From positions 22,482-86,481 of the forward strand of contig DMMZ01000042.1 of assembly GCA_003452915.1 (NCBI GenBank): a stretch of 64,000 nt of DNA. The letters run 5' to 3'. The notes under the pieces were generated by a model. The model saw only the letters and a program-made list of their open reading frames with translations. It searched no databases and had not been told where the DNA came from. A program made the translations under genes and the position numbers. The stretch is from Clostridiales bacterium (lineage in GTDB: Bacteria; Bacillota; Clostridia; Oscillospirales; CAG-382). This document shows, one piece after another, positions 27,453-38,429 of this stretch; positions within the stretch are counted from its first letter, which is position 1; each line of letters begins with the position of its first letter.

Positions 27453-29588
27453 ATGTTTAAAAGCAGAAAGCGTTTTGGAAATGAATATATTTCTATTGCT
27501 ATAGATACAACCTCTGGTGAGATTTTAGAATTGCTTAATAAACAAAACGGTGATAATTTAATAAAAAGCACACCATTCAGCATACCGAGTATGTTTTCTA
27601 TTTTAGTAGGCTCGGTGCGTTTAAGTGTTCCTAAGCTGGTCATGGTCAGAAACAATCCTGATCTTAGAGCACAAATAAGTGAAGTTAAAAGGGATAACGG
27701 AACTGAGATAAACATAATTTACAACAAATTGTCAGACGGAACAACCGTATACGATATACAATTAGCAATTATTATTTTCCTGCCGGATGACAGTGGAAAG
27801 CTTATTTTATCCGCTGATGTAAAGAATAACGGTGGTTATGATGTTGAAAAATTCTGCTTTCCTATTATCAGCGGAATCTATCTGGGTGAAAACTATAAAA
27901 ACGATACATTGGTTTATCCGTATAATTCGGGGATGAAATTTCATAACCCTGTTGAATACTTTGCGAAGAAACCCAAGAGCATCTTCTGGCGTTGGCAAGA
28001 ATATCGTTATTGTTATCATATGGATGGCTGCTGCGGTGTTAAGAACGCAGACGGTCTTTATAGTTATTCATCTTTATACTCCGGTGCTACCTCAATGGCA
28101 TGGTTTGATCTTTATGATGACAACGGTGGAATCTATTTCGGAATGCATGAACGAAACGGAATCTGCCGTCTTAAAGCGGATACATTCGGTCCGGACAGCC
28201 CCGGTATGATTTTCAGCATTGAAAAGACTGTTGAGAATATAGAAAGCTTTTGTTTGAACAACGTAGTTATTGCTCTACACGAGGGAGATTGGCACGATGG
28301 AGCCGATATATACAGAGCGGCTCATGAGATTGAAGAACTTAAAGAACCCACTTGGTGGAATAAGAGTGTTTCACTCGCGGCACATTATGATTTCAAATAC
28401 CAGAATGGCGGAATAGTACATCGCTTTTCGGATATTCCATCGTTGGTTGAACAAGCAAAAAGCTTAAATACCGACCATTTATTATTCTCTGGCTGGCATA
28501 CAGACGGCTTTGACAACGGTTTTCCGGAATATTATGCCGATAAAGACCTTGGTAGTGAACAAGACCTTGCTACAGGACTTAAATATGCAGCCGATAACGG
28601 AGTTAAAGTCTCTTTCTATATTAATACGCGTATTGCAAACAGAAAGTTCGAGCATCTGACTGAGTTTATAAAGGACAACGCTGTTATAAAACGTGATGGT
28701 ACACCTGAAGTTGAAGGATACGGTGACGCAACCATTTCCTTCGCTACAATGTGTGCAAGCAGTGAAGGCTGGAAAAACAGACTTTTACAAGCTATCGAAT
28801 ACGTTGTTGACCTTGGTGCAACCGGAGTTTATCTCGACCAGCTTGCAATGGCACCACCAAAAACGTGTCACAGCAAGGACCACAACCATCGTTCCGACGA
28901 TTGGTGCGAGGGCTATAAGGATATGCTTGCAAAAGCTAATAAAATTAAAACAAAAAGCGGTGAGCCAATCTCCATTATTATTGAGGGATGTTCCGATTTG
29001 TTCGGGTCACTTGTAAATGGCAGTTTGGTTTCAACATTCATTTCTCTGCACAGCGGTGCATTTCCCGAGCTTTATCGCTATACCTTCCCAAAACAAAGAC
29101 TTGTTGACATGGTATATCCTAAGAACAATCTTGCAATGCGTCCTGTTCATGTTGCACAGCGTTCGTCGGATATGATAAATAAATCGTTTGTAACCGATAT
29201 TTATTTCTGGGTATACGATCTGGAGGAGGATAACAGCTTTTTTGAAGACCCCGAACAGCTAGGTTACTTAAAAAAGGTTATTGAACTTAAGAAAAACTGG
29301 CATCAGAAATATGTGGGCTTCGTTTTTGCGGATGAAAAGGGTATAAGCGAAAAAAGCGAGGAGCTTACTGCAAAATTCTATTATAAAGACGATTTGTGCC
29401 TTATCGCTTATGCGAGTGACGGAAAAACCGTATGCGATCTTAAAACAATTTTCCCTGCCGAACTAATCGAATTTAATTGTGCAGAGGGTGTAGATTCTGT
29501 TTACGAAGAGCTTGTACCGGATCTTTGCTATATTAAAATCGCTTACTCACGCTGTGGAACAATTTTATTAAAAAAATTAAAAAATTAA
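27453..29588 (+). CDS. Large cytoplasmic protein, glycoside-hydrolase-like, family unassigned
   Basis: 711 aa with no signal peptide and an AAGGGGA RBS. The central region has TIM-barrel-like motifs (LLFSGWHTDGFDNGFPEYY, GATGVYLDQLA, IIIEGCSD). The family could not be assigned by eye. Confidence 0.5.
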   Translation: MFKSRKRFGNEYISIAIDTTSGEILELLNKQNGDNLIKSTPFSIPSMFSILVGSVRLSVPKLVMVRNNPDLRAQISEVKRDNGTEINIIYNKLSDGTTVYDIQLAIIIFLPDDSGKLILSADVKNNGGYDVEKFCFPIISGIYLGENYKNDTLVYPYNSGMKFHNPVEYFAKKPKSIFWRWQEYRYCYHMDGCCGVKNADGLYSYSSLYSGATSMAWFDLYDDNGGIYFGMHERNGICRLKADTFGPDSPGMIFSIEKTVENIESFCLNNVVIALHEGDWHDGADIYRAAHEIEELKEPTWWNKSVSLAAHYDFKYQNGGIVHRFSDIPSLVEQAKSLNTDHLLFSGWHTDGFDNGFPEYYADKDLGSEQDLATGLKYAADNGVKVSFYINTRIANRKFEHLTEFIKDNAVIKRDGTPEVEGYGDATISFATMCASSEGWKNRLLQAIEYVVDLGATGVYLDQLAMAPPKTCHSKDHNHRSDDWCEGYKDMLAKANKIKTKSGEPISIIIEGCSDLFGSLVNGSLVSTFISLHSGAFPELYRYTFPKQRLVDMVYPKNNLAMRPVHVAQRSSDMINKSFVTDIYFWVYDLEEDNSFFEDPEQLGYLKKVIELKKNWHQKYVGFVFADEKGISEKSEELTAKFYYKDDLCLIAYASDGKTVCDLKTIFPAELIEFNCAEGVDSVYEELVPDLCYIKIAYSRCGTILLKKLKN

Positions 29589-32255: not shown

Positions 32256-32342
32256 GCCGGTGTGATGGAATTGGCAGACGTGCTGGACTCAAAATCCAGT
32301 GATAGCAATATCGTGCGGGTTCGACCCCCGCCACCGGCACCA
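32256..32342 (+). tRNA. tRNA-Leu (anticodon CAA), class II, CCA encoded
   Basis: Acceptor GCCGGTG / CACCGGC. Anticodon loop CTCAAAA. Long variable arm. T-arm GCGGGTTCGACCCCCGC. Discriminator A followed by CCA. Confidence 0.93.
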
Positions 32343-32606
32343 CGAAACGAACCAGACATTCATACAATGTCTGGTTCTTTCTTTTAATTATTCGATTTCG
32401 GAAACGCTGATAACACAAGGAAAAGCAAGACAGGTGGGTGCAAAACGCCCGTGCTGCCTTGCTTTTTTATATTTTGAAATTATCCTTAAGCGAGTTCCGC
32501 AAAAAGCAATTTGCACCCACCTTGAGCCGTAAACGAGAAAAATTAAATAGTTAAGAGAATAATTAAATAGTATGATTTAGCTTGCCTAAACAGGATTACT
32601 CCGACT
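32343..32606. repeat. Direct repeat copy 1 (264 bp)
   Basis: It aligns base for base with 33901-34164 at a period of 1558 bp. By eye there are about 20 mismatches, clustered at 32392-32408. Both copies are preceded by CA. Confidence 0.9.
32349..32385 (+). terminator. tRNA-Leu terminator (inside repeat copy 1)
   Basis: gaaccagacat / atgtctggttc 11-bp stem followed by tttctttt. An identical hairpin recurs at 33907-33943 in repeat copy 2. Confidence 0.75.
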
Positions 32607-32616
32607 TGATATTAGG

Positions 32617-33582
32617 CTAAATACTCTTTTTTGTAGAGTATTTTGTGTTTTTTCTTTGTCTTACACCGTTCTCATCTGTCTCGACATTGCTGCGCCGTTT
32701 TTTTTCGGCTTGTACCATGTCAAAGATTTCTTTCGGAATAATGGGCGGATTGTTATTCTCCGAAGCGAACTTATCATGCTCACCTTGATTGTTAACGCGC
32801 TTGTCTCTGTAGGTGGGCTTGTACGTTTTATAGATGATCGCTGTGCCGTAGTATTTTGTGTTTTCAAGAATGCACTCAATCGTCCGCTTCGGCCATTGCT
32901 TTCTTCCCTTGGGCGAGAGAATACCATCATATTCGAGAGCAGCTTTAATTTTAACGATACTCATTCCAGTAATGTAAGAATTGAAGATTTTTCGTACAAC
33001 AGCCGCTTCTTCTTCAAATATCACTAGATCACCGTTATCATCCTGACGGTAACCGTAGCACGGTTTATTGTATAGTGCCGAGGTTCCGTCTGCGATTTGT
33101 TTTTCTATACTCCAGCGGACATTCATGCTATGATCCTCAAGTTCATCTTGTGCAATGCTGCTGTATATTGTAAGAAGCTGTTCATCGACACCGTCTGTGT
33201 AATAAATTTGTTCACTCATAAAGCAAATATCGATACCGTTTGCCCGTAGTTTGCGGACAGCTTCAAGCGCTACAATCGTATCTCGGCTGAATCGACTGAG
33301 GCTTTTTACGACCACCAAATCGAGTTTATGAGATACACAATCATAAAGAAGCCGTTGAAATTCATTTCTTTTCAGAGCGTCGGCTCCACTTTCAACATCT
33401 AAATATATGTCCGCGATTTTCCAGTCCGGATGCCTGATGACATACTGTGTTATGCCAGATGCTTGAGAAGAAAAGCTTCGAAGCTGCTTTTTACTGCTTG
33501 AGCTTACTCGGCAGTAGATACCGACCCATTTCCAACCAGGGATTTGAGGCTTTGGGGGGATAACGGTGACTTTTTTATCCAT
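32617..33582 (-). CDS. Serine recombinase (resolvase domain plus recombinase domain), apparently 3'-truncated
   Basis: The N-terminal catalytic domain (VGIYCRVSSS...LVVVKSLSRFSRD) is followed by a recombinase domain (YGYRQDDNG...KIKAALEYDGILSPKGRKQWPKRTIECILENTKYYG). It ends at 321 aa, where large serine recombinases normally continue into a zinc ribbon and coiled coil. The stop lies 11 nt from the repeat edge. Confidence 0.8.
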   Translation of the reverse strand: MDKKVTVIPPKPQIPGWKWVGIYCRVSSSSKKQLRSFSSQASGITQYVIRHPDWKIADIYLDVESGADALKRNEFQRLLYDCVSHKLDLVVVKSLSRFSRDTIVALEAVRKLRANGIDICFMSEQIYYTDGVDEQLLTIYSSIAQDELEDHSMNVRWSIEKQIADGTSALYNKPCYGYRQDDNGDLVIFEEEAAVVRKIFNSYITGMSIVKIKAALEYDGILSPKGRKQWPKRTIECILENTKYYGTAIIYKTYKPTYRDKRVNNQGEHDKFASENNNPPIIPKEIFDMVQAEKKRRSNVETDENGVRQRKNTKYSTKKSI

Positions 33583-33836
33583 AATAACACGCCTTTCTGT
33601 TCAAGAATAGCTTCCATTTCTTTCGATCCGTGGGTTTTACATAAATTTTGGGTTGATCGGTACAATGATTCGATTGCTATTTCCAAGTAACAGATACTCC
33701 ATTTTTTGCTTGAAGAATGACTTTTAATCAATAAAATAGACTAATTACTTTTATTATATCATAGATTTTTTTAGTTACAATAGTTCGGTAAAATATTTTA
33801 AAAAACACTTATTTTTCTAGTGTTATTCCATTTTTT

Positions 33837-33900
33837 CACCCACCTGAACCGCGATGAAGAGAAAAATTTAATTGTGTTAAAAAATAGCCTAAACAAATCA
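33837..33900. repeat. Partial third copy of the repeat's 3' end
   Basis: cacccacctgaaccg...gagaaaaatttaatt...gcctaaacaaatca parallels 32514-32600 and 34072-34158 with an internal deletion. It abuts the 5' end of repeat copy 2. Confidence 0.6.
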
Positions 33901-34164
33901 CGAAACGAACCAGACATTCATACAATGTCTGGTTCTTTCTTTTAATTATTCTATCTAATAAGAGCCGATAACACAAGGAAAAGCAAGACAGGTGGGTGCA
34001 AAACGCCCGTACTGCCTTGCTTTTTTATATTTTGAGATTAACCTTAAGCGAGTTCCGTAAAAAGCAATTTGCACCCACCTTGAGCTGTAAACGAGAAAAA
34101 TTAAATAGTTAAAAGAATAATTAAATAGTATGATTTGGCTTGCCTAAACAGGATTGCTACGACT
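33901..34164. repeat. Direct repeat copy 2 (264 bp)
   Basis: See copy 1. It includes a duplicate of the tRNA terminator hairpin although no tRNA precedes it. Confidence 0.9.
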
Positions 34165-34275: not shown

Positions 34276-34875
34276 CTAATCCAATAATGTTTGTATACTA
34301 TCGTCTATATATTTTTCATATTCATCAAAGTCTTTACTTTGGGTGTTTACGTCGTCGTAATATTTAACAACTTTAAAAGGTACTCCAAAATCGCTCAGCC
34401 TTCTAGCTTTGGAACCGAGAGCATTATACTCAAGCTTCTGTAACAATAGCCCTAATCCCGGAACATCGTCTATATGCTTATTTTGTAAAACAGAAATTCT
34501 ATATCGATAAAACACATCAAATAGTCCCAAGTATTTTACTAAATGATACTTAAAAACATTGTATACATAATCAGCAACGGTTCGTATAGCAGCATCTTTA
34601 GACATAGGTGAATTGATTTTGTTTGTATAGTAATCCACCATTGACAAAAATCCACCTTGAAGATATGAATGTAACAATACAGTAACTAAAGAATAAATCT
34701 GTCTTTCACCGGTTTTAAGATCAATTACAATTTTGAGTTTTTCTTCTTTAACTATAGGTAGTACAACGTCCATGATAAGTTGAAACCCACGCCAATTTAA
34801 TTCACGAGCATTACTTTTCGCTAATGAAATAGATACATCTTTGATCTTGTCCAGTTGTGAAGTGCTAAGACGCAT
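34276..34875 (-). CDS. Hypothetical protein (orphan, possibly a fragment)
   Basis: The ORF is open from 34974, but that N-terminal extension overlaps the Asd-like fragment in another frame. The first credible ATG is 34875 (MRLSTSQLDKIKD...). I recognise no family. Confidence 0.4.
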   Translation of the reverse strand: MRLSTSQLDKIKDVSISLAKSNARELNWRGFQLIMDVVLPIVKEEKLKIVIDLKTGERQIYSLVTVLLHSYLQGGFLSMVDYYTNKINSPMSKDAAIRTVADYVYNVFKYHLVKYLGLFDVFYRYRISVLQNKHIDDVPGLGLLLQKLEYNALGSKARRLSDFGVPFKVVKYYDDVNTQSKDFDEYEKYIDDSIQTLLD

Positions 34876-35122
34876 TATCCGCCCATTCCAAGCTTGCACC
34901 TTTAGAACCTTCTTTTTCCGCAAAAAATACCAGATCAAGCTTCTTGAATAAATCTTCACTGACTTTTTGTACATTTACAGGTACACCATCGATTATTTCG
35001 TTCCTTTCCCTTGTTGCCATAATTGTTATTGGTCCGTCAACAGGAAATTTTCTTTCATTTAATATCCGAACAAGATGCTCTCCGACCGGACCCACACCTA
35101 AAACTCCAACTTTTAATCCCAT
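34865..35122 (-). pseudogene. N-terminal fragment (85 aa) of an aspartate-semialdehyde-dehydrogenase-like NAD(P)-binding protein
   Basis: MGLKVGVLGVGPVGEHLVRILNERKFPVD...LDLVFFA parallels the Asd N-terminus (compare B. subtilis Asd HVAVVGATGAVGQQMLKTLEDRNFEMD...VDIALFSAGG). It has a GGAGG RBS but stops after the Rossmann half. Confidence 0.5.
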
Positions 35123-35478
35123 TATATAATTCCTCCAAAAAATTAATTTTAATTAAACTGATAAAATTTATCAGTCATCAGCCCATCAAAGCAATATGAA
35201 GATGCATGCAGTATCAAGGCGATCACCCCCTTTCACAAAATAAAAACACCTTACCGAAATGTCGTCGATAAGGTGTAAAAAATATATCTCGTCGGCAGAT
35301 TGCTGACTTAAAACGCTAACTCTGAATGGTAGTGGTGGTGTAGAAGAAGCGTATCATAATACTAGTTCCTTATAATTAAATAATTTAAGCTATATTAACA
35401 TAGCTGTTCAAATATGTCAATATTTATTTTATGCAAAACATATATCATTGAACAATAATAATAAGAAAACCGAGCCAA

Positions 35479-35592
35479 TTATTCAGGCTCGACTTCGATT
35501 TCCTTCCCATTACGAAAAACAAACGTTATACTTCCGTTCTTGTGAATAATGCTTTTCTCTATTGTAATCCTACAAGATAAGTATCTTATTGA
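35479..35592 (-). pseudogene. Orphan 3' gene fragment (37 codons) with its own terminator
   Basis: The frame is open without a start codon: SIRYLSCRITIEKSIIHKNGSITFVFRNGKEIEVEPE*. The hairpin cgagcc/ggctcg (35471-35491) plus gttttcttatt overlaps the stop. The tail resembles C-termini of large serine recombinases, which is a weak recollection. Confidence 0.35.
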
Positions 35593-35650
35593 CTAACCAA
35601 AAACGGTGTGATATACTTTTTAAAATAATTAAGTAGTAGGAAGGTTTTTT

Positions 35651-37922: not shown

Positions 37923-38429
37923 ATGCCATTTTTAATACTTCTAATTTTTTTATTCCCTTTAATTATTATTTTCTTACCGATAATAATAGAAAAAAGAAGA
38001 ACCTCAATTTTTATAAAAAACAATCCAGACCATGTGAAAATGCAAATTTTTTCAGGGAGTAGTTCTTCATCTTACAAAATTAAAATTTTCTCAGTAAATG
38101 ATCAGAAACCCAACTTTATTGGTAATATCCTATATTTGATTCCCGGTAAAAATAAAATTATCGCACAGTATAAAGCCATAGACGAAAATCAAAAATATAA
38201 TCTTATGATAGGAAATCTATTAGGTGGGATAATTGGCACAATAGTAAATTTAATATCTTTAATTATGATGAAAAAAAACTTAAAAATGGCGAACCCCCTA
38301 AACGGAATTACCGTTGATATCGAAACTAAAAGAAAAGGGCATTATGAAATGAAGGCTGATCCCTATGAGGACACCATTAATATAATATGCTTTGAAAGTG
38401 AAAAACCCGATATTAAAACATATAAATAA
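37923..38429 (+). CDS. Hypothetical membrane protein (orphan, AT-rich)
   Basis: N-terminal TM helix (PFLILLIFLFPLIIIFLPIII) and a second helix (LLGGIIGTIVNLISLIMM). AAGGAG RBS. No recognisable family. Confidence 0.5.
   Translation: MPFLILLIFLFPLIIIFLPIIIEKRRTSIFIKNNPDHVKMQIFSGSSSSSYKIKIFSVNDQKPNFIGNILYLIPGKNKIIAQYKAIDENQKYNLMIGNLLGGIIGTIVNLISLIMMKKNLKMANPLNGITVDIETKRKGHYEMKADPYEDTINIICFESEKPDIKTYK

What the first reader, a model, noticed from the sequence alone, without database searches (positions are those of the whole stretch)
32343..34164. Truncated serine recombinase bracketed by 264-bp direct repeats that begin right after the tRNA-Leu CCA end
Positions 32343-32606 and 33901-34164 align base for base, 1558 bp apart. 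By eye there are about 20 substitutions, and both copies are preceded by CA. Copy 1 starts at the first base after tRNA-Leu(CAA) and contains that tRNA's terminator hairpin. Copy 2 carries the same hairpin with no tRNA in front of it. A 321-aa serine recombinase lies between them and ends where a zinc ribbon and coiled coil would be expected. A partial third copy of the repeat's 3' end (33837-33900) also lies between them. Serine integrases normally leave only a 2-bp crossover and no long direct repeats. This architecture therefore suggests serial accretion and decay of related elements at one tRNA-flanking site. An alternative is a roughly 1.56-kb recombinase-only module moved by recombination within the 264-bp sequence.
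Basis: partly seen in the sequence, partly recalled or inferred. Interest (0 to 1): 0.6.

Follow-up and report, generated by a model that had tools for sequence, protein, structure and literature searches.

The report
Minimal serine-recombinase element beside tRNA-Leu
The "truncated" recombinase is a full-length member of a large, apparently undescribed family of short serine recombinases, and here it forms a 1.56-kb recombinase-only mobile element inserted at the CCA end of tRNA-Leu, next to the leftover end of an older, related, decayed defence island.

Summary
The coordinates hold. tRNA-Leu(CAA) ends at 32342, and 266-bp direct repeats (32341-32606 and 33899-34164; 17 mismatches) bracket a 321-aa serine recombinase.

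The recombinase is not truncated. Hundreds of relatives are 300-335 aa, with a C-terminal motif conserved up to the stop codon. The family ends where large serine recombinases enter their zinc ribbon.

The 264-bp repeat (R) belongs to the mobile element, not the chromosome. An 84-85% identical copy abuts tRNA-Ser in another organism. A second R type, 83-88% conserved, abuts tmRNA, tRNA-Ser and another tRNA in five genomes. All junctions fall at the encoded CCA; only CA is always shared. A motif, ATTGTATCA, lies exactly 17 bp away.

Best reading: a 1558-bp recombinase-only element (32343-33900) landed between tRNA-Leu and the R end of an older relative. That relative survives only as R2 plus the last 200 codons of a Hachiman hamB gene, fused by deletion to the first 85 codons of asd.

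Relatives also form tandem arrays, carry defence cargo, and include one recombinase-less module. No empty site, circle or activity was seen, so mobility and the CA crossover are inferred.

New variant of a known kind; interest 0.6.

The parts
32256..32342 (+). tRNA-Leu(CAA), intact, with encoded CCA; the integration target
   Evidence: ARAGORN; Rfam RF00005, 51.4 bits. The orthologous tRNA in L131 is occupied by a different island.
32341..32342 (.). CA of the CCA end; left junction (attL) and candidate 2-bp crossover
   Evidence: CA is the only sequence always shared by the left and right junctions in five elements. The crossover itself is inferred.
32343..33900 (.). Element N: a 1558-bp recombinase-only module, made of R1, the recombinase gene, its promoter region, the far arm and CA
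   Evidence: Length equals the repeat period. Recombinase-only relatives of similar size: L090 1463 bp, L058 1611 bp, L088 1421 bp. L010 and L012 are about 1.9 kb with one extra small ORF.
32343..32606 (+). R1: element-borne 264-bp end module lying between the tRNA and the recombinase stop codon
   Evidence: 84% identical to an R copy next to tRNA-Ser(GCT) in L087. The same architecture occurs in L008-L012.
32349..32377 (+). Hairpin 1, terminator-like. Its centre TCATACAAT (32360-32368) is the reverse complement of ATTGTATGA and starts 17 nt after CA
   Evidence: Terminator scan. Hairpins with covarying stems and a conserved centre. Fixed N17 spacing to TG in 37 of 123 motif hits, and to TGG 18 times against 0-8 at other offsets.
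32422..32465 (+). Hairpin 2, a terminator-like stem in both directions, carrying motif GGTGGGTGCAAA (32433-32444) in its loop
   Evidence: Read from the sequence. Motif positions. Same layout with different sequence in L008.
32510..32521 (+). Inverted partner of that motif (TTTGCACCCACC), about 65 nt away
   Evidence: Related motifs in other R types: L014 TTTTTGCACCCCCC, L047 and L058 ATGCACACCCCT, L008-12 TTTGAATACCCC.
32535..32567 (-). Two tandem short motifs (TTTAATTwTTCTC) at the recombinase-proximal end of R1
   Evidence: L008-type R has three copies of TTTTATTTTTC at the same place.
32617..33582 (-). Short serine recombinase, 321 aa: catalytic domain plus Recombinase domain, no zinc ribbon or coiled coil; full-length for its family
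   Evidence: Pfam. 360 homologs, nearly all 300-335 aa. C-terminal motif conserved to the stop; R25, S27, R97 and R100 invariant. AF2 model pLDDT 82.8. Best fold matches are SPbeta, phiC31 and Bxb1 integrases.
33753..33780 (-). Promoter-like site (TTGTAA-16-TGnTATAAT) about 170 nt upstream of the recombinase start
   Evidence: Consensus scan. A consensus match only; not shown to function.
33833..33898 (+).
   Evidence: Aligns to the 3' part of R. An equivalent arm with different sequence sits at the same place in L008, L010 and L012. TTAGGCTA recurs after internal junctions.
33899..33900 (.). CA at the right junction (attR) of N
33901..34164 (+). R2: end module of an older related element (or a retained landing site); 93.6% identical to R1
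   Evidence: Analogous second R copies in L008 (followed by a type II restriction-modification system) and L137 (solo, next to chromosomal genes).
34276..34890 (-). hamB remnant: the last ~200 codons of a Hachiman helicase gene; no N-terminal part and no hamA
   Evidence: PADLOC PDLC00191 positions 563-766 of 767, E 5e-58. Complete hamA-hamB loci in L124-L126 for comparison.
34865..35122 (-). asd remnant: the first 85 codons of aspartate-semialdehyde dehydrogenase, fused by deletion to the hamB remnant at about 34868-34890
   Evidence: Pfam PF01118 and NCBIfam asd models match profile positions 1-78 only.

Best explanation
The locus is a tandem of two related integrative elements at the CCA end of tRNA-Leu(CAA).

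Element N (32343-33900, 1558 bp) is a minimal, probably autonomous module. It consists of a 264-bp end module (R1), an intact 321-aa short serine recombinase, its promoter region and a 66-bp far arm. It sits between the tRNA and R2. R2 is the equivalent end module of an older element O.

O once carried a Hachiman system. It was then gutted by a deletion running from inside hamB into the chromosomal asd gene.

The long 'direct repeats' are therefore homologous ends of two elements, not a duplication made by integration.

Proposed mechanism:
- The recombinase exchanges strands at the CA of the tRNA's CCA, a 2-bp crossover as in all serine recombinases.
- It reads a site whose right half carries ATTGTATCA 17 bp from the crossover. 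Its left half is either the tRNA 3' end or the element's far arm.
- The incoming element brings its own copy of the right half. So the tRNA-proximal junction is again a usable target, and the distal junction looks like the circular element's own site.
- This makes repeated insertion (arrays) easy, and makes excision the same kind of reaction as integration.
- That fits a protein lacking the coiled coil that gives large serine integrases their one-way behaviour.
- The rest of R (inverted 12-mers, short tandem motifs, two hairpins) probably supplies terminators. These would insulate the tRNA and the element. R may also provide accessory binding sites, as in a resolvase res site.

Shown: the anatomy, the intact full-length gene, that R is element-borne, junctions at CCA, the fixed motif spacing, arrays in relatives, and the two gene remnants.

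Inferred: the crossover at CA, a circular 1558-bp form, current activity, the origin of R2 from a complete element, and any role of R in synapsis.
For: (1) Not truncated.
- 360 homologs at E<=1e-20 are nearly all 300-335 aa with the same two Pfam domains.
- The motif RRSNVE..DG...RK.TKYSxKK runs to the stop codon in all 24 aligned members, and the catalytic R25, S27, R97 and R100 are invariant.
- In a search of every cluster representative, the nearest single-stretch hits (40-48% identity) are 300-346 aa, ahead of 520-560-aa integrases at 37-42%.
- At least 527 relatives occur in species-representative genomes.

(2) R is element-borne.
- L087 has tRNA-Ser(GCT)-CCA followed directly by an R copy 84-85% identical to the window's, in an unrelated parAB-serS context.
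- A second R type is 83-88% identical over about 300 bp in L008, L009 and L010 (tmRNA), L011 (tRNA-Ser) and L012 (another tRNA). The similarity stops at the TGG that is the reverse complement of CCA.

(3) Junction geometry.
- AT[TC]GTAT[CG]A is followed by TG at exactly +17 in 37 of 123 hits. It is followed by TGG plus a tRNA or tmRNA end 18 times, against 0-8 at other offsets. This includes sites where the motif is not in a hairpin (L047, L058).
- The core shared by left and right junctions is CA in WIN and L010, CAAA in L008 and L012, and CCACGAAA in L087.

(4) The far arm is conserved in kind in L008, L010 and L012.

(5) Arrays and long repeats are a family trait.
- Long flanking repeats: L008 255 bp, L018 204 bp, L015 304 bp, L090 201 bp, L058 797 bp.
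- Tandem copies: L088 (two), L104 (four), L029 (three).

(6) The layout 'R followed by defence genes without an adjacent recombinase' recurs. L008's second R is followed by a type II restriction-modification pair, and L087's R by an Mrr-type enzyme.

(7) The hamB and asd remnants meet without a gap at about 34868-34890.
Against: - No empty site, no circular junction and no polymorphism were found. All contigs of this species are 100% identical over 3.7 kb. None of the short family contigs checked is circular.
- Dyad symmetry around CA is not better than shuffled sequence (15 of 45 positions against 13.4 +/- 2.8). The two inverted motifs lie at 17 and 19-20 bp, so CA is not the exact centre of symmetry.
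- The tRNA side of the site shows no matching motif, so how the left half is read is unknown.
- Element O's own recombinase and far end are missing. R2 could instead be a solo landing site, as in L137, where a second R lies directly next to chromosomal genes.
- R-flanked islands also occur with full-length, zinc-ribbon recombinases (L131, L137). So it is not proven that the short recombinase is the enzyme acting on these sites.
Confidence: 0.65

Rival explanations
1. Homologous-recombination insertion. A circle carrying R plus the recombinase gene entered by RecA-type crossover anywhere inside the resident 264-bp R (Campbell insertion). Site-specific recombination played no part in making this arrangement. 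N can be lost again the same way.
For: 264 bp at 94% identity is an adequate substrate. The product would have exactly the observed order. The mismatches are mosaic, with 8 of 17 in one 15-bp patch and 9 in the other 251 bp, as expected if the copies have exchanged sequence.
Against: It does not explain the family-wide features. Junctions fall exactly at CCA next to different tRNA and tmRNA genes. The motif keeps a fixed 17-bp spacing. Elements such as L087, L010 and L012 have no long R on the far side. The variable patch also differs in L087, so it may simply be a free spacer.
Confidence: 0.12
2. Resolvase-type system with R as a full partner site. R is a res-like site (crossover site plus accessory sites) that must be present in both partners. 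R2 is then not the relic of another element. It is the standing landing pad that the chromosome retains. The enzyme mainly deletes, or occasionally inserts, the segment between two R copies.
For: The protein lacks the zinc ribbon and coiled coil, which large integrases use to tell sites apart. R has several repeated motifs in a conserved order across unrelated sequences. Long R-R flanks are frequent. A solo R sits at the far end in L137.
Against: L087, L010 and L012 have a complete R on one side only. R2 is followed by foreign defence-gene debris, which suggests it arrived with cargo. No binding data exist.
Confidence: 0.15
3. The recombinase is a truncated pseudogene of a large serine integrase, and the whole bracket is inert debris from decayed elements.
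For: The protein ends where a 520-aa relative enters its zinc ribbon. The stop codon is 10 bp from R1. The neighbouring hamB and asd genes really are fragments.
Against: The same stop position and C-terminal motif are kept in hundreds of proteins across Clostridia, Bacilli and streptococci. The catalytic residues are intact. Both junction sites are intact.
Confidence: 0.04
4. Assembly artefact: the repeat or the tandem layout was created by misassembly of a metagenome bin.
For: The source is a metagenome-assembled genome. One Logan contig (L007) breaks inside R2, at window position 33981.
Against: The layout is identical in four assemblies made with different pipelines. The copies differ at 17 positions, so they are not a collapsed or duplicated read pile. 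A break of a short-k assembly inside a repeat is expected.
Confidence: 0.01

Closest known systems
Large serine recombinases / serine integrases (SPbeta SprA, phiC31, Bxb1, A118; staphylococcal CcrB is the best named sequence model)
   Same: Same catalytic domain with its Ser nucleophile, the long helix E and the helical Recombinase domain. 36% identity to a 520-aa relative over residues 2-316. Best structural matches. Probable 2-bp crossover. The gene sits at the end of the element next to the attachment site.
   Different: No zinc ribbon and no coiled coil, the parts that read the outer half of att sites and impose direction. About 320 aa instead of 450-700. Scores far below the Ccr cut-offs (106 bits against 900). 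The attachment region is about 330 bp with repeated motifs, not 40-50 bp.
Small serine recombinases with res sites (Tn3 / gamma-delta resolvase, Sin)
   Same: Catalytic domain. A crossover site at one end of a longer region with several repeated motifs. No built-in direction control.
   Different: The DNA-binding part is the Recombinase domain, not a C-terminal helix-turn-helix. The elements are integrated at tRNA ends rather than resolving cointegrates. Binding to the R motifs is untested.
Dehalococcoides ssrA genomic islands (DsiB; McMurdie et al. 2011, PMC3146451)
   Same: Serine-recombinase islands at the tmRNA gene, in tandem arrays, some without an integration module, with the recombinase next to the target-proximal end.
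   Different: DsiB is 540 aa and works with a second small recombinase. Insertion is inside the tmRNA T-loop with a 20-bp repeat. There is no long end module.
Accretion of integrative elements and cis-mobilizable remnants (streptococcal ICE/IME/CIME; SCC arrays)
   Same: Successive site-specific insertions at one site leave internal att sites and decayed neighbours. Streptococcal relatives of this family sit just downstream of rlmD (rumA).
   Different: Those systems use tyrosine or full-length serine integrases and short repeats of 2-60 bp. Ambroset et al. 2016 (PMC4701971) only note in passing that 10 of 42 serine integrases lack the zinc-ribbon Pfam domain.
Small serine recombinases as markers of defence systems (Andersen et al. 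2026, PMC13552941)
   Same: A serine recombinase gene is genetically linked to varied anti-phage genes in Bacillota. Cargo here includes restriction-modification, Mrr, TIR, kinase and Hachiman genes.
   Different: That work concerns Gin-like proteins (modelled there against the phage Mu small serine recombinase) and gives no attachment-site or mobility analysis.

Membership tests
Large serine recombinase (serine integrase) | N-terminal resolvase-type catalytic domain with Ser nucleophile | tested here: met
   PF00239, E 2.9e-24. The R25-V26-S27 motif and R97/R100 are invariant in the family alignment.
Large serine recombinase (serine integrase) | Recombinase domain (PF07508) after helix E | tested here: met
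   PF07508, E 2.4e-20, residues 190-297. Confident helical domain in the model.
Large serine recombinase (serine integrase) | Zinc ribbon domain (PF13408) | tested here: not met
   No Pfam hit. The protein ends at the residue aligned with position 327 of a 520-aa relative, just before its zinc ribbon. The same holds for all close homologs.
Large serine recombinase (serine integrase) | Coiled-coil motif embedded in the zinc ribbon domain, controlling direction with a directionality factor | tested here: not met
   No sequence remains after residue 321. The model shows only a short beta tail at 300-310.
Large serine recombinase (serine integrase) | Simple 40-50-bp attP and attB with a 2-bp crossover | tested here: inconclusive
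   CA is the only core always shared, which fits a 2-bp crossover. The conserved region is about 330 bp, and dyad symmetry is not significant.
Small serine recombinase (resolvase/invertase) | C-terminal helix-turn-helix DNA-binding domain; total length about 180-210 aa | tested here: not met
   321 aa with a Recombinase domain instead. Resolvase and invertase models match the catalytic part only.
Small serine recombinase (resolvase/invertase) | Multi-subsite res or enhancer-dependent site | not testable with these tools
   R has repeated motifs in a conserved order, but protein binding cannot be assessed.
IS607-type serine transposase | N-terminal MerR-like DNA-binding domain followed by a C-terminal catalytic domain | tested here: not met
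   The catalytic domain is N-terminal. The IS607 model scores 42 bits against a cut-off of 110.
SCC cassette chromosome recombinases (CcrA/B/C) | Score above the NCBIfam equivalog cut-off; full length of about 450-560 aa | tested here: not met
   CcrB 106 bits against 900, covering profile positions 7-283 of 542 only.
Classical tRNA/tmRNA genomic island (Islander type) | Tyrosine integrase; crossover inside the tRNA 3' half, leaving a displaced tRNA fragment as the direct repeat | tested here: not met
   The recombinase is a serine recombinase. The repeat starts at the CA of CCA and contains no tRNA sequence.
Tandem accretion of integrative elements | Two or more elements of one family side by side at one target, separated by an internal att site | tested here: met
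   R1 and R2 are homologous element ends, and the far arm of N abuts R2. The same is seen in L008, L058, L088 and L104.
Hachiman defence system | HamA (PF08878) plus complete HamB helicase | tested here: not met
   Only HamB profile positions 563-766 of 767 are present. The adjacent ORF is an asd fragment. Complete loci are shown in L124-L126.

The most novel reading that the evidence does not exclude
The short, zinc-ribbon-less recombinases may run a cassette platform at the CCA ends of tRNA and tmRNA genes. Recombinase-only modules (1.4-1.6 kb) and recombinase-less cargo modules would share one attachment architecture: far arm, CA, 17 bp, ATTGTATCA, then R. An example of a cargo module is the 1.9-kb Mrr module in L087, and perhaps the original Hachiman module here. 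These modules would stack and swap defence genes in trans, rather like an integron. The enzyme would be a naturally bidirectional, roughly 320-aa serine integrase. It would read the tRNA 3' end and rely on res-like accessory sites instead of a coiled coil.
Probability: 0.25. Interest if true: 0.8.

Novelty: new variant of a known kind. Interest (0 to 1): 0.6.

Why it matters
Serine integrases are thought to need their zinc ribbon and coiled coil to tell attachment sites apart and to run in one direction.

A widespread natural family appears to lack both parts and still insert precisely at tRNA and tmRNA ends. It has at least 527 relatives in species-representative genomes and 1796 cluster representatives at E<=1e-30. 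That raises a directly testable question: how is site choice achieved with only the catalytic and Recombinase domains?

Such a family would also offer very small integrases as tools.

The elements are tiny. Island databases such as TIGER exclude anything under 2 kb, so they have probably been overlooked. They carry, or sit beside, varied anti-phage genes, so they may be one route by which defence genes move among Clostridia, Bacilli and streptococci.

For this window specifically, the finding turns an apparent gene graveyard into one intact minimal element plus one decayed island.

Tried and rejected
- Known RNA in R or in the repeats of relatives: Rfam found only the tRNA and tmRNAs.
- R as part of a conserved chromosomal RNA gene: rejected, because R is found next to different tRNAs.
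- Crossover at the centre of hairpin 1: rejected. Both arms of the hairpin covary as one unit, and the sequence is conserved right up to the TGG next to different targets.
- Strict dyad symmetry about CA: not significant.
- Circular contigs among short family contigs: none.
- Empty site or polymorphism: the single metagenome scan found one other R-bearing contig (L087) but no empty tRNA-Leu site. All same-species contigs are identical. Orthologous loci in the nearest species are occupied by another island (L131) or end at the tRNA (L132).
- Intact Hachiman relatives next to an R module, to reconstruct element O: the closest hamB genes lie in unrelated elements with a 565-aa recombinase and TnpW. 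This gives no support either way.
- Similarity of the 12-nt motif to the tRNA T-arm: noticed, but not tested statistically. It is left as a speculation in the notebook.
- Streptococcal rlmD-associated relatives have a different repeat module, with iterons upstream of the recombinase. I did not try to unify the two layouts.
- Window-type hairpin in IMG/VR: no match.
- An earlier notebook entry gave the mismatch cluster as 32404-32418. The correct position is 32394-32408.
Full report
**1. The observation**

The coordinates are right.
- ARAGORN and Rfam place an intact tRNA-Leu(CAA) at 32256-32342, ending in an encoded CCA.
- The repeat finder returns two copies of 266 nt, 32341-32606 and 33899-34164, spaced 1558 bp apart.
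- They align without gaps, with 17 mismatches (93.6% identity). Eight of these fall in one 15-bp patch, 32394-32408.
- Both copies are preceded by CA.
- Both contain the same 12-bp-stem hairpin followed by a T run, scored as an intrinsic terminator.
- 20-mers from the repeat occur nowhere else in the 64 kb.
- The partial third copy (about 33833-33898) does align with the 3' part of the repeat, with indels.
- Between the copies lies a 321-aa ORF (32617-33582, minus strand) with Resolvase and Recombinase Pfam domains and nothing else.
- The same 3.7 kb is 100% identical in contigs from ENA, an NCBI MAG (Clostridiales bacterium GWF2_36_10, GCA_001795415.1), JGI and Logan.

So this is not an assembly artefact. 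It also means there is no polymorphism to work with.

**2. The recombinase is not truncated**

- A search of 5.8 billion proteins gave 360 homologs at E<=1e-20. Almost all are 300-335 aa and have the same two domains.
- In an alignment of 24 diverse members, the C-terminal motif RRSNVE..DG...RK.TKYSxKK runs to the stop codon in every one. The catalytic Arg-x-Ser and the SRxxR residues are invariant.
- A filter-free search of 1.84 billion cluster representatives found 1796 hits at E<=1e-30. The nearest single-stretch hits (40-48% identity) are 300-346 aa. Ordinary 520-560-aa integrases follow at 37-42%.
- Against a 520-aa relative, the window protein aligns from residue 2 to 316 (36% identity). 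It stops exactly where that protein goes on into its zinc ribbon.
- The AlphaFold model (pLDDT 82.8) shows a catalytic domain, the long helix E, a helical Recombinase domain and a short beta tail.
- Its best structural matches are the SPbeta, phiC31 and Bxb1 integrases.

The protein is therefore a full-length member of a natural family of short recombinases. They resemble large serine recombinases but lack the zinc ribbon and coiled coil. At least 527 relatives were found in species-representative genomes of Clostridia, Bacilli, streptococci and others.

**3. The 264-bp repeat belongs to the element, not to the chromosome**

Two independent lines show this.

There tRNA-Ser(GCT) ends ...CCGCCA and is followed at once by a sequence 84-85% identical to the window's repeat over 260-286 bp. 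The context (parA-parB-serS) is unrelated.

Second, the closest relatives of the recombinase (49-53% identity) carry a different version of the module between the recombinase stop codon and the target gene. It is 83-88% identical over about 300 bp in five genomes from different genera. Yet it abuts tmRNA in three (L008, L009, L010), tRNA-Ser in one (L011) and another tRNA in one (L012). Similarity stops exactly at the TGG that is the reverse complement of CCA.

I call the module R. The two R types share little sequence but have the same architecture. Reading from the recombinase toward the tRNA:
- two or three short tandem motifs;
- a 12-nt motif and its inverted copy about 60 nt away, the second lying in the loop of a GC-rich hairpin;
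- a terminal hairpin centred on TTGTATCA.

**4. Junction geometry**

Across all loci fetched, the motif AT[TC]GTAT[CG]A is followed by TG at exactly +17 nt in 37 of 123 occurrences. It is followed by TGG plus a tRNA or tmRNA 3' end 18 times, against 0-8 at any other offset.

This holds for at least eight sequence-independent site types. It includes two (L047, L058) where the motif is not inside a hairpin. So the fixed element is the motif and its distance, not the hairpin.

Where both ends of an element could be identified, the only sequence always shared by the two junctions is CA:
- the window and L010 share CA;
- L008 and L012 share CAAA;
- L087 shares CCACGAAA.

A 2-bp shared core is what a serine recombinase needs. 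I therefore place the crossover at the CA of the CCA end. This is an inference.

The hairpin centre is excluded as the crossover. Both hairpin arms covary as one unit, and the sequence is conserved right up to the TGG beside different target genes.

**5. The 'partial third copy' is the element's far arm**

In the window, the 66 bp before the second CA carry three things:
- the 12-nt motif (as CACCCACC);
- one short tandem motif;
- an inverted, slightly degenerate copy of the junction motif (ATTGTGTTA), 19 bp from CA.

In L008, L010 and L012 the same place holds the equivalent features of their own R type. These follow a conserved GAGTTGGGGCTA, and L008 and L012 have ATTGTGTCA/ATTGTGTCC about 20 bp from the junction. 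After internal junctions in other arrays, TG is followed by TTAGGCTA 6-10 nt on.

A feature conserved in position across unrelated sequences is functional rather than debris.

Joined in a circle, the window element would read: far arm, CA, 17 bp, TCATACAAT, then the rest of R. In register, however, the two arms are no more symmetric than shuffled controls (15 of 45 positions against 13.4 +/- 2.8). The motifs sit at 17 and 19-20 bp. I therefore do not claim a simple symmetric site.

**6. What the window holds**

Element N runs from 32343 to 33900 (1558 bp). It comprises R1, the recombinase gene, a promoter-like site at 33780-33753 and the far arm. It has no other gene.

Relatives give comparable small modules:
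- recombinase-only modules of 1421 bp (L088), 1463 bp (L090) and 1611 bp (L058);
- about 1.9 kb in L010 and L012, with one extra small ORF;
- 3.1 kb in L008, which adds a lipoprotein gene.

To the right of N comes R2. Then, 112 bp further on, comes the natural 3' end of a hamB gene of which only the last ~200 codons survive (PADLOC positions 563-766 of 767, E 5e-58). This is fused without a gap, at about 34868-34890, to the first 85 codons of asd with its upstream region.

The simplest history has four steps:
1. tRNA-Leu and asd were once convergent neighbours.
2. An element O of the same family (R2, Hachiman cargo, presumably its own recombinase and far arm) inserted at the CCA.
3. A deletion from inside hamB into asd removed most of O.
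4. N inserted at the CCA. The order of steps 3 and 4 is unknown.

The layout 'R followed by defence genes with no recombinase next to it' is seen elsewhere. In L008 the second R is followed by a type II restriction-modification pair (REase E 8e-115, MTase E 1e-186). In L087, R is followed by an Mrr-type enzyme.

**7. Family context**

- Long repeats bracketing the recombinase are frequent: L008 255 bp, L015 304 bp, L018 204 bp, L090 201 bp, L082 248 bp.
- Head-to-tail arrays are also frequent: L058, L088 (two copies), L029 (three) and L104 (four).
- Cargo is mostly defence-related: restriction-modification, Mrr, TIR, a PD-T4-6/Stk2-like kinase, HNH, and here Hachiman.
- L087 appears to be a recombinase-less module bounded by R on one side. 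On the other side it has two copies of the 12-nt motif plus the shared CCACGAAA.
- A second branch of the family sits just downstream of an intact rlmD (rumA) in streptococci and others. It has a different, iteron-bearing module upstream of the recombinase.
- In the nearest other species (L131), the same tRNA-Leu(CAA) is followed by TGATAGAAT at the same 17-bp distance, terminator hairpins, three iterons, and an island ending in two full-length recombinases.
- In L137, L008-type R copies flank a prophage remnant with zinc-ribbon recombinases. The outer R lies next to chromosomal genes.

The last two cases show that the site is a hot spot. They also show that R-like ends are not exclusive to the short recombinases. 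This weakens the claim that the short enzyme is the one acting on them. They also keep open the idea that a resident R is a landing pad rather than a relic.

**8. Mechanism**

I commit to the following, at about 65% confidence. N is a minimal integrative element. Its recombinase exchanges strands at the CA of the tRNA's CCA.

Each newcomer brings the right half of the site with it. So the tRNA-proximal junction stays a good target, and the distal junction resembles the circular element's own site.
- This explains the arrays.
- It explains why the long repeats are 77-99% rather than 100% identical: they are homologous ends of different elements.
- It makes excision and integration the same kind of reaction. 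That suits a protein without the coiled coil that makes large integrases one-way.

The hairpins of R probably terminate the tRNA transcript and the element's own transcript. The repeated motifs may be accessory binding sites, as in a res site.

Rivals:
- Insertion or loss by homologous recombination within R (12%).
- A res-type system in which R is required in both partners and R2 is a standing landing pad (15%).
- An inert truncated pseudogene (4%).
- An assembly artefact (1%).

No empty site, circle or activity was observed, so mobility itself is inferred from comparative anatomy.

**9. Comparison with what is known**

Serine-recombinase islands at tmRNA are described in Dehalococcoides (DsiB, 540 aa, 20-bp repeats, tandem arrays; PMC3146451). 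They are also described at rumA in streptococcal ICEs and IMEs (PMC4701971, PMC5357655). Those use full-length enzymes and short repeats.

Ambroset et al. mention only in passing that 10 of 42 streptococcal serine integrases lack the zinc-ribbon domain. Andersen et al. 2026 link Gin-like small serine recombinases to defence genes without analysing sites. TIGER excludes islands under 2 kb.

In four full-text searches (and their follow-ups) I found no description of this roughly 320-aa family, its CCA-end targeting or its end module. The library is incomplete, so this absence is not proof.

**10. Verdict**

The 'truncated' label is wrong. Accretion and a recombinase-only module are both supported.

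I rate it a new variant of a known kind: a site-specific integrative element with a serine recombinase of unusual, reduced architecture and a complex end module. Interest is 0.6.

Noticed in passing
window 35123-35650 (minus strand): The 528-bp region upstream of the asd remnant keeps a strong promoter-like site (35420-35392, TTGACA-17-TAATAT with TG). It also has a terminator-like hairpin (35276-35246) ahead of the start codon. This looks like a leader or attenuator, but no Rfam family matched.
   Followed up: partly
window 37923-38429: A 168-aa ORF with a hydrophobic N-terminus lies in a very AT-rich patch (GC 0.24-0.30, against about 0.40 around it) between galT and the P-type ATPase gene. 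It had no Pfam hit on record in the related contigs.
   Followed up: no
window 27453-29588; L001/L004 versus L002/L005: The DUF6259 gene is one 711-aa ORF in the window and the NCBI MAG. In the ENA contig it is called as two genes (403 and 279 aa), although the 3.7 kb around the finding is identical. This is either a strain-level frameshift or a sequencing error.
   Followed up: no
L131 10781-11270: In a related species the same tRNA-Leu(CAA) is followed by a different end module: TGATAGAAT 17 bp after CCA, two hairpins and three TCGTTAAAAGAT iterons. Then comes an island ending in two full-length, zinc-ribbon serine recombinases.
   Followed up: partly
L087 4098-5977: A 1.9-kb module next to tRNA-Ser(GCT) has the window-type R at one end and two TTTGCACCCACC motifs at the other. 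It carries an Mrr-type restriction gene but no recombinase. It is a possible non-autonomous cargo module. The shared junction core is CCACGAAA.
   Followed up: partly
L104 1019-7042; L088 1798-4685: IMG/VR contigs carry head-to-tail arrays of recombinase-only modules. L104 has four copies on a 162-kb contig, the last two 98% identical with a 1200-bp period. L088 has two copies with a 1421-bp period.
   Followed up: partly
L124-L126: The closest hamB genes are called as two or three overlapping ORFs (446-568 aa plus 206 aa) in many metagenome contigs. They lie inside elements with a 565-aa recombinase, TnpW and a restriction-modification pair. This is either a recurrent frameshift or a natural split of HamB.
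   Followed up: no
L137 492-10587: Two L008-type R copies (242 bp, 86% identical) flank a 9.9-kb prophage remnant with Fic, isochorismatase and two zinc-ribbon recombinase genes. The outer R lies about 250 bp from a chromosomal P-type ATPase gene.
   Followed up: partly
R modules of window, L008-L012, L014, L047, L058: The conserved 12-nt motif (TTTGCACCCACC / TTTGAATACCCC / ATGCACACCCCT) resembles the T-loop and T-stem of tRNAs (TTCGAATCCCC). This is possibly a mimic of the target half-site, but it was not tested statistically.
   Followed up: no
L139 (Streptococcus phage Javan105) 1-3139: A predicted prophage begins with a 637-aa serine integrase followed directly by a 314-aa member of the short family. 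The short module may be a neighbour swept into the prophage call, or a partner enzyme.
   Followed up: no
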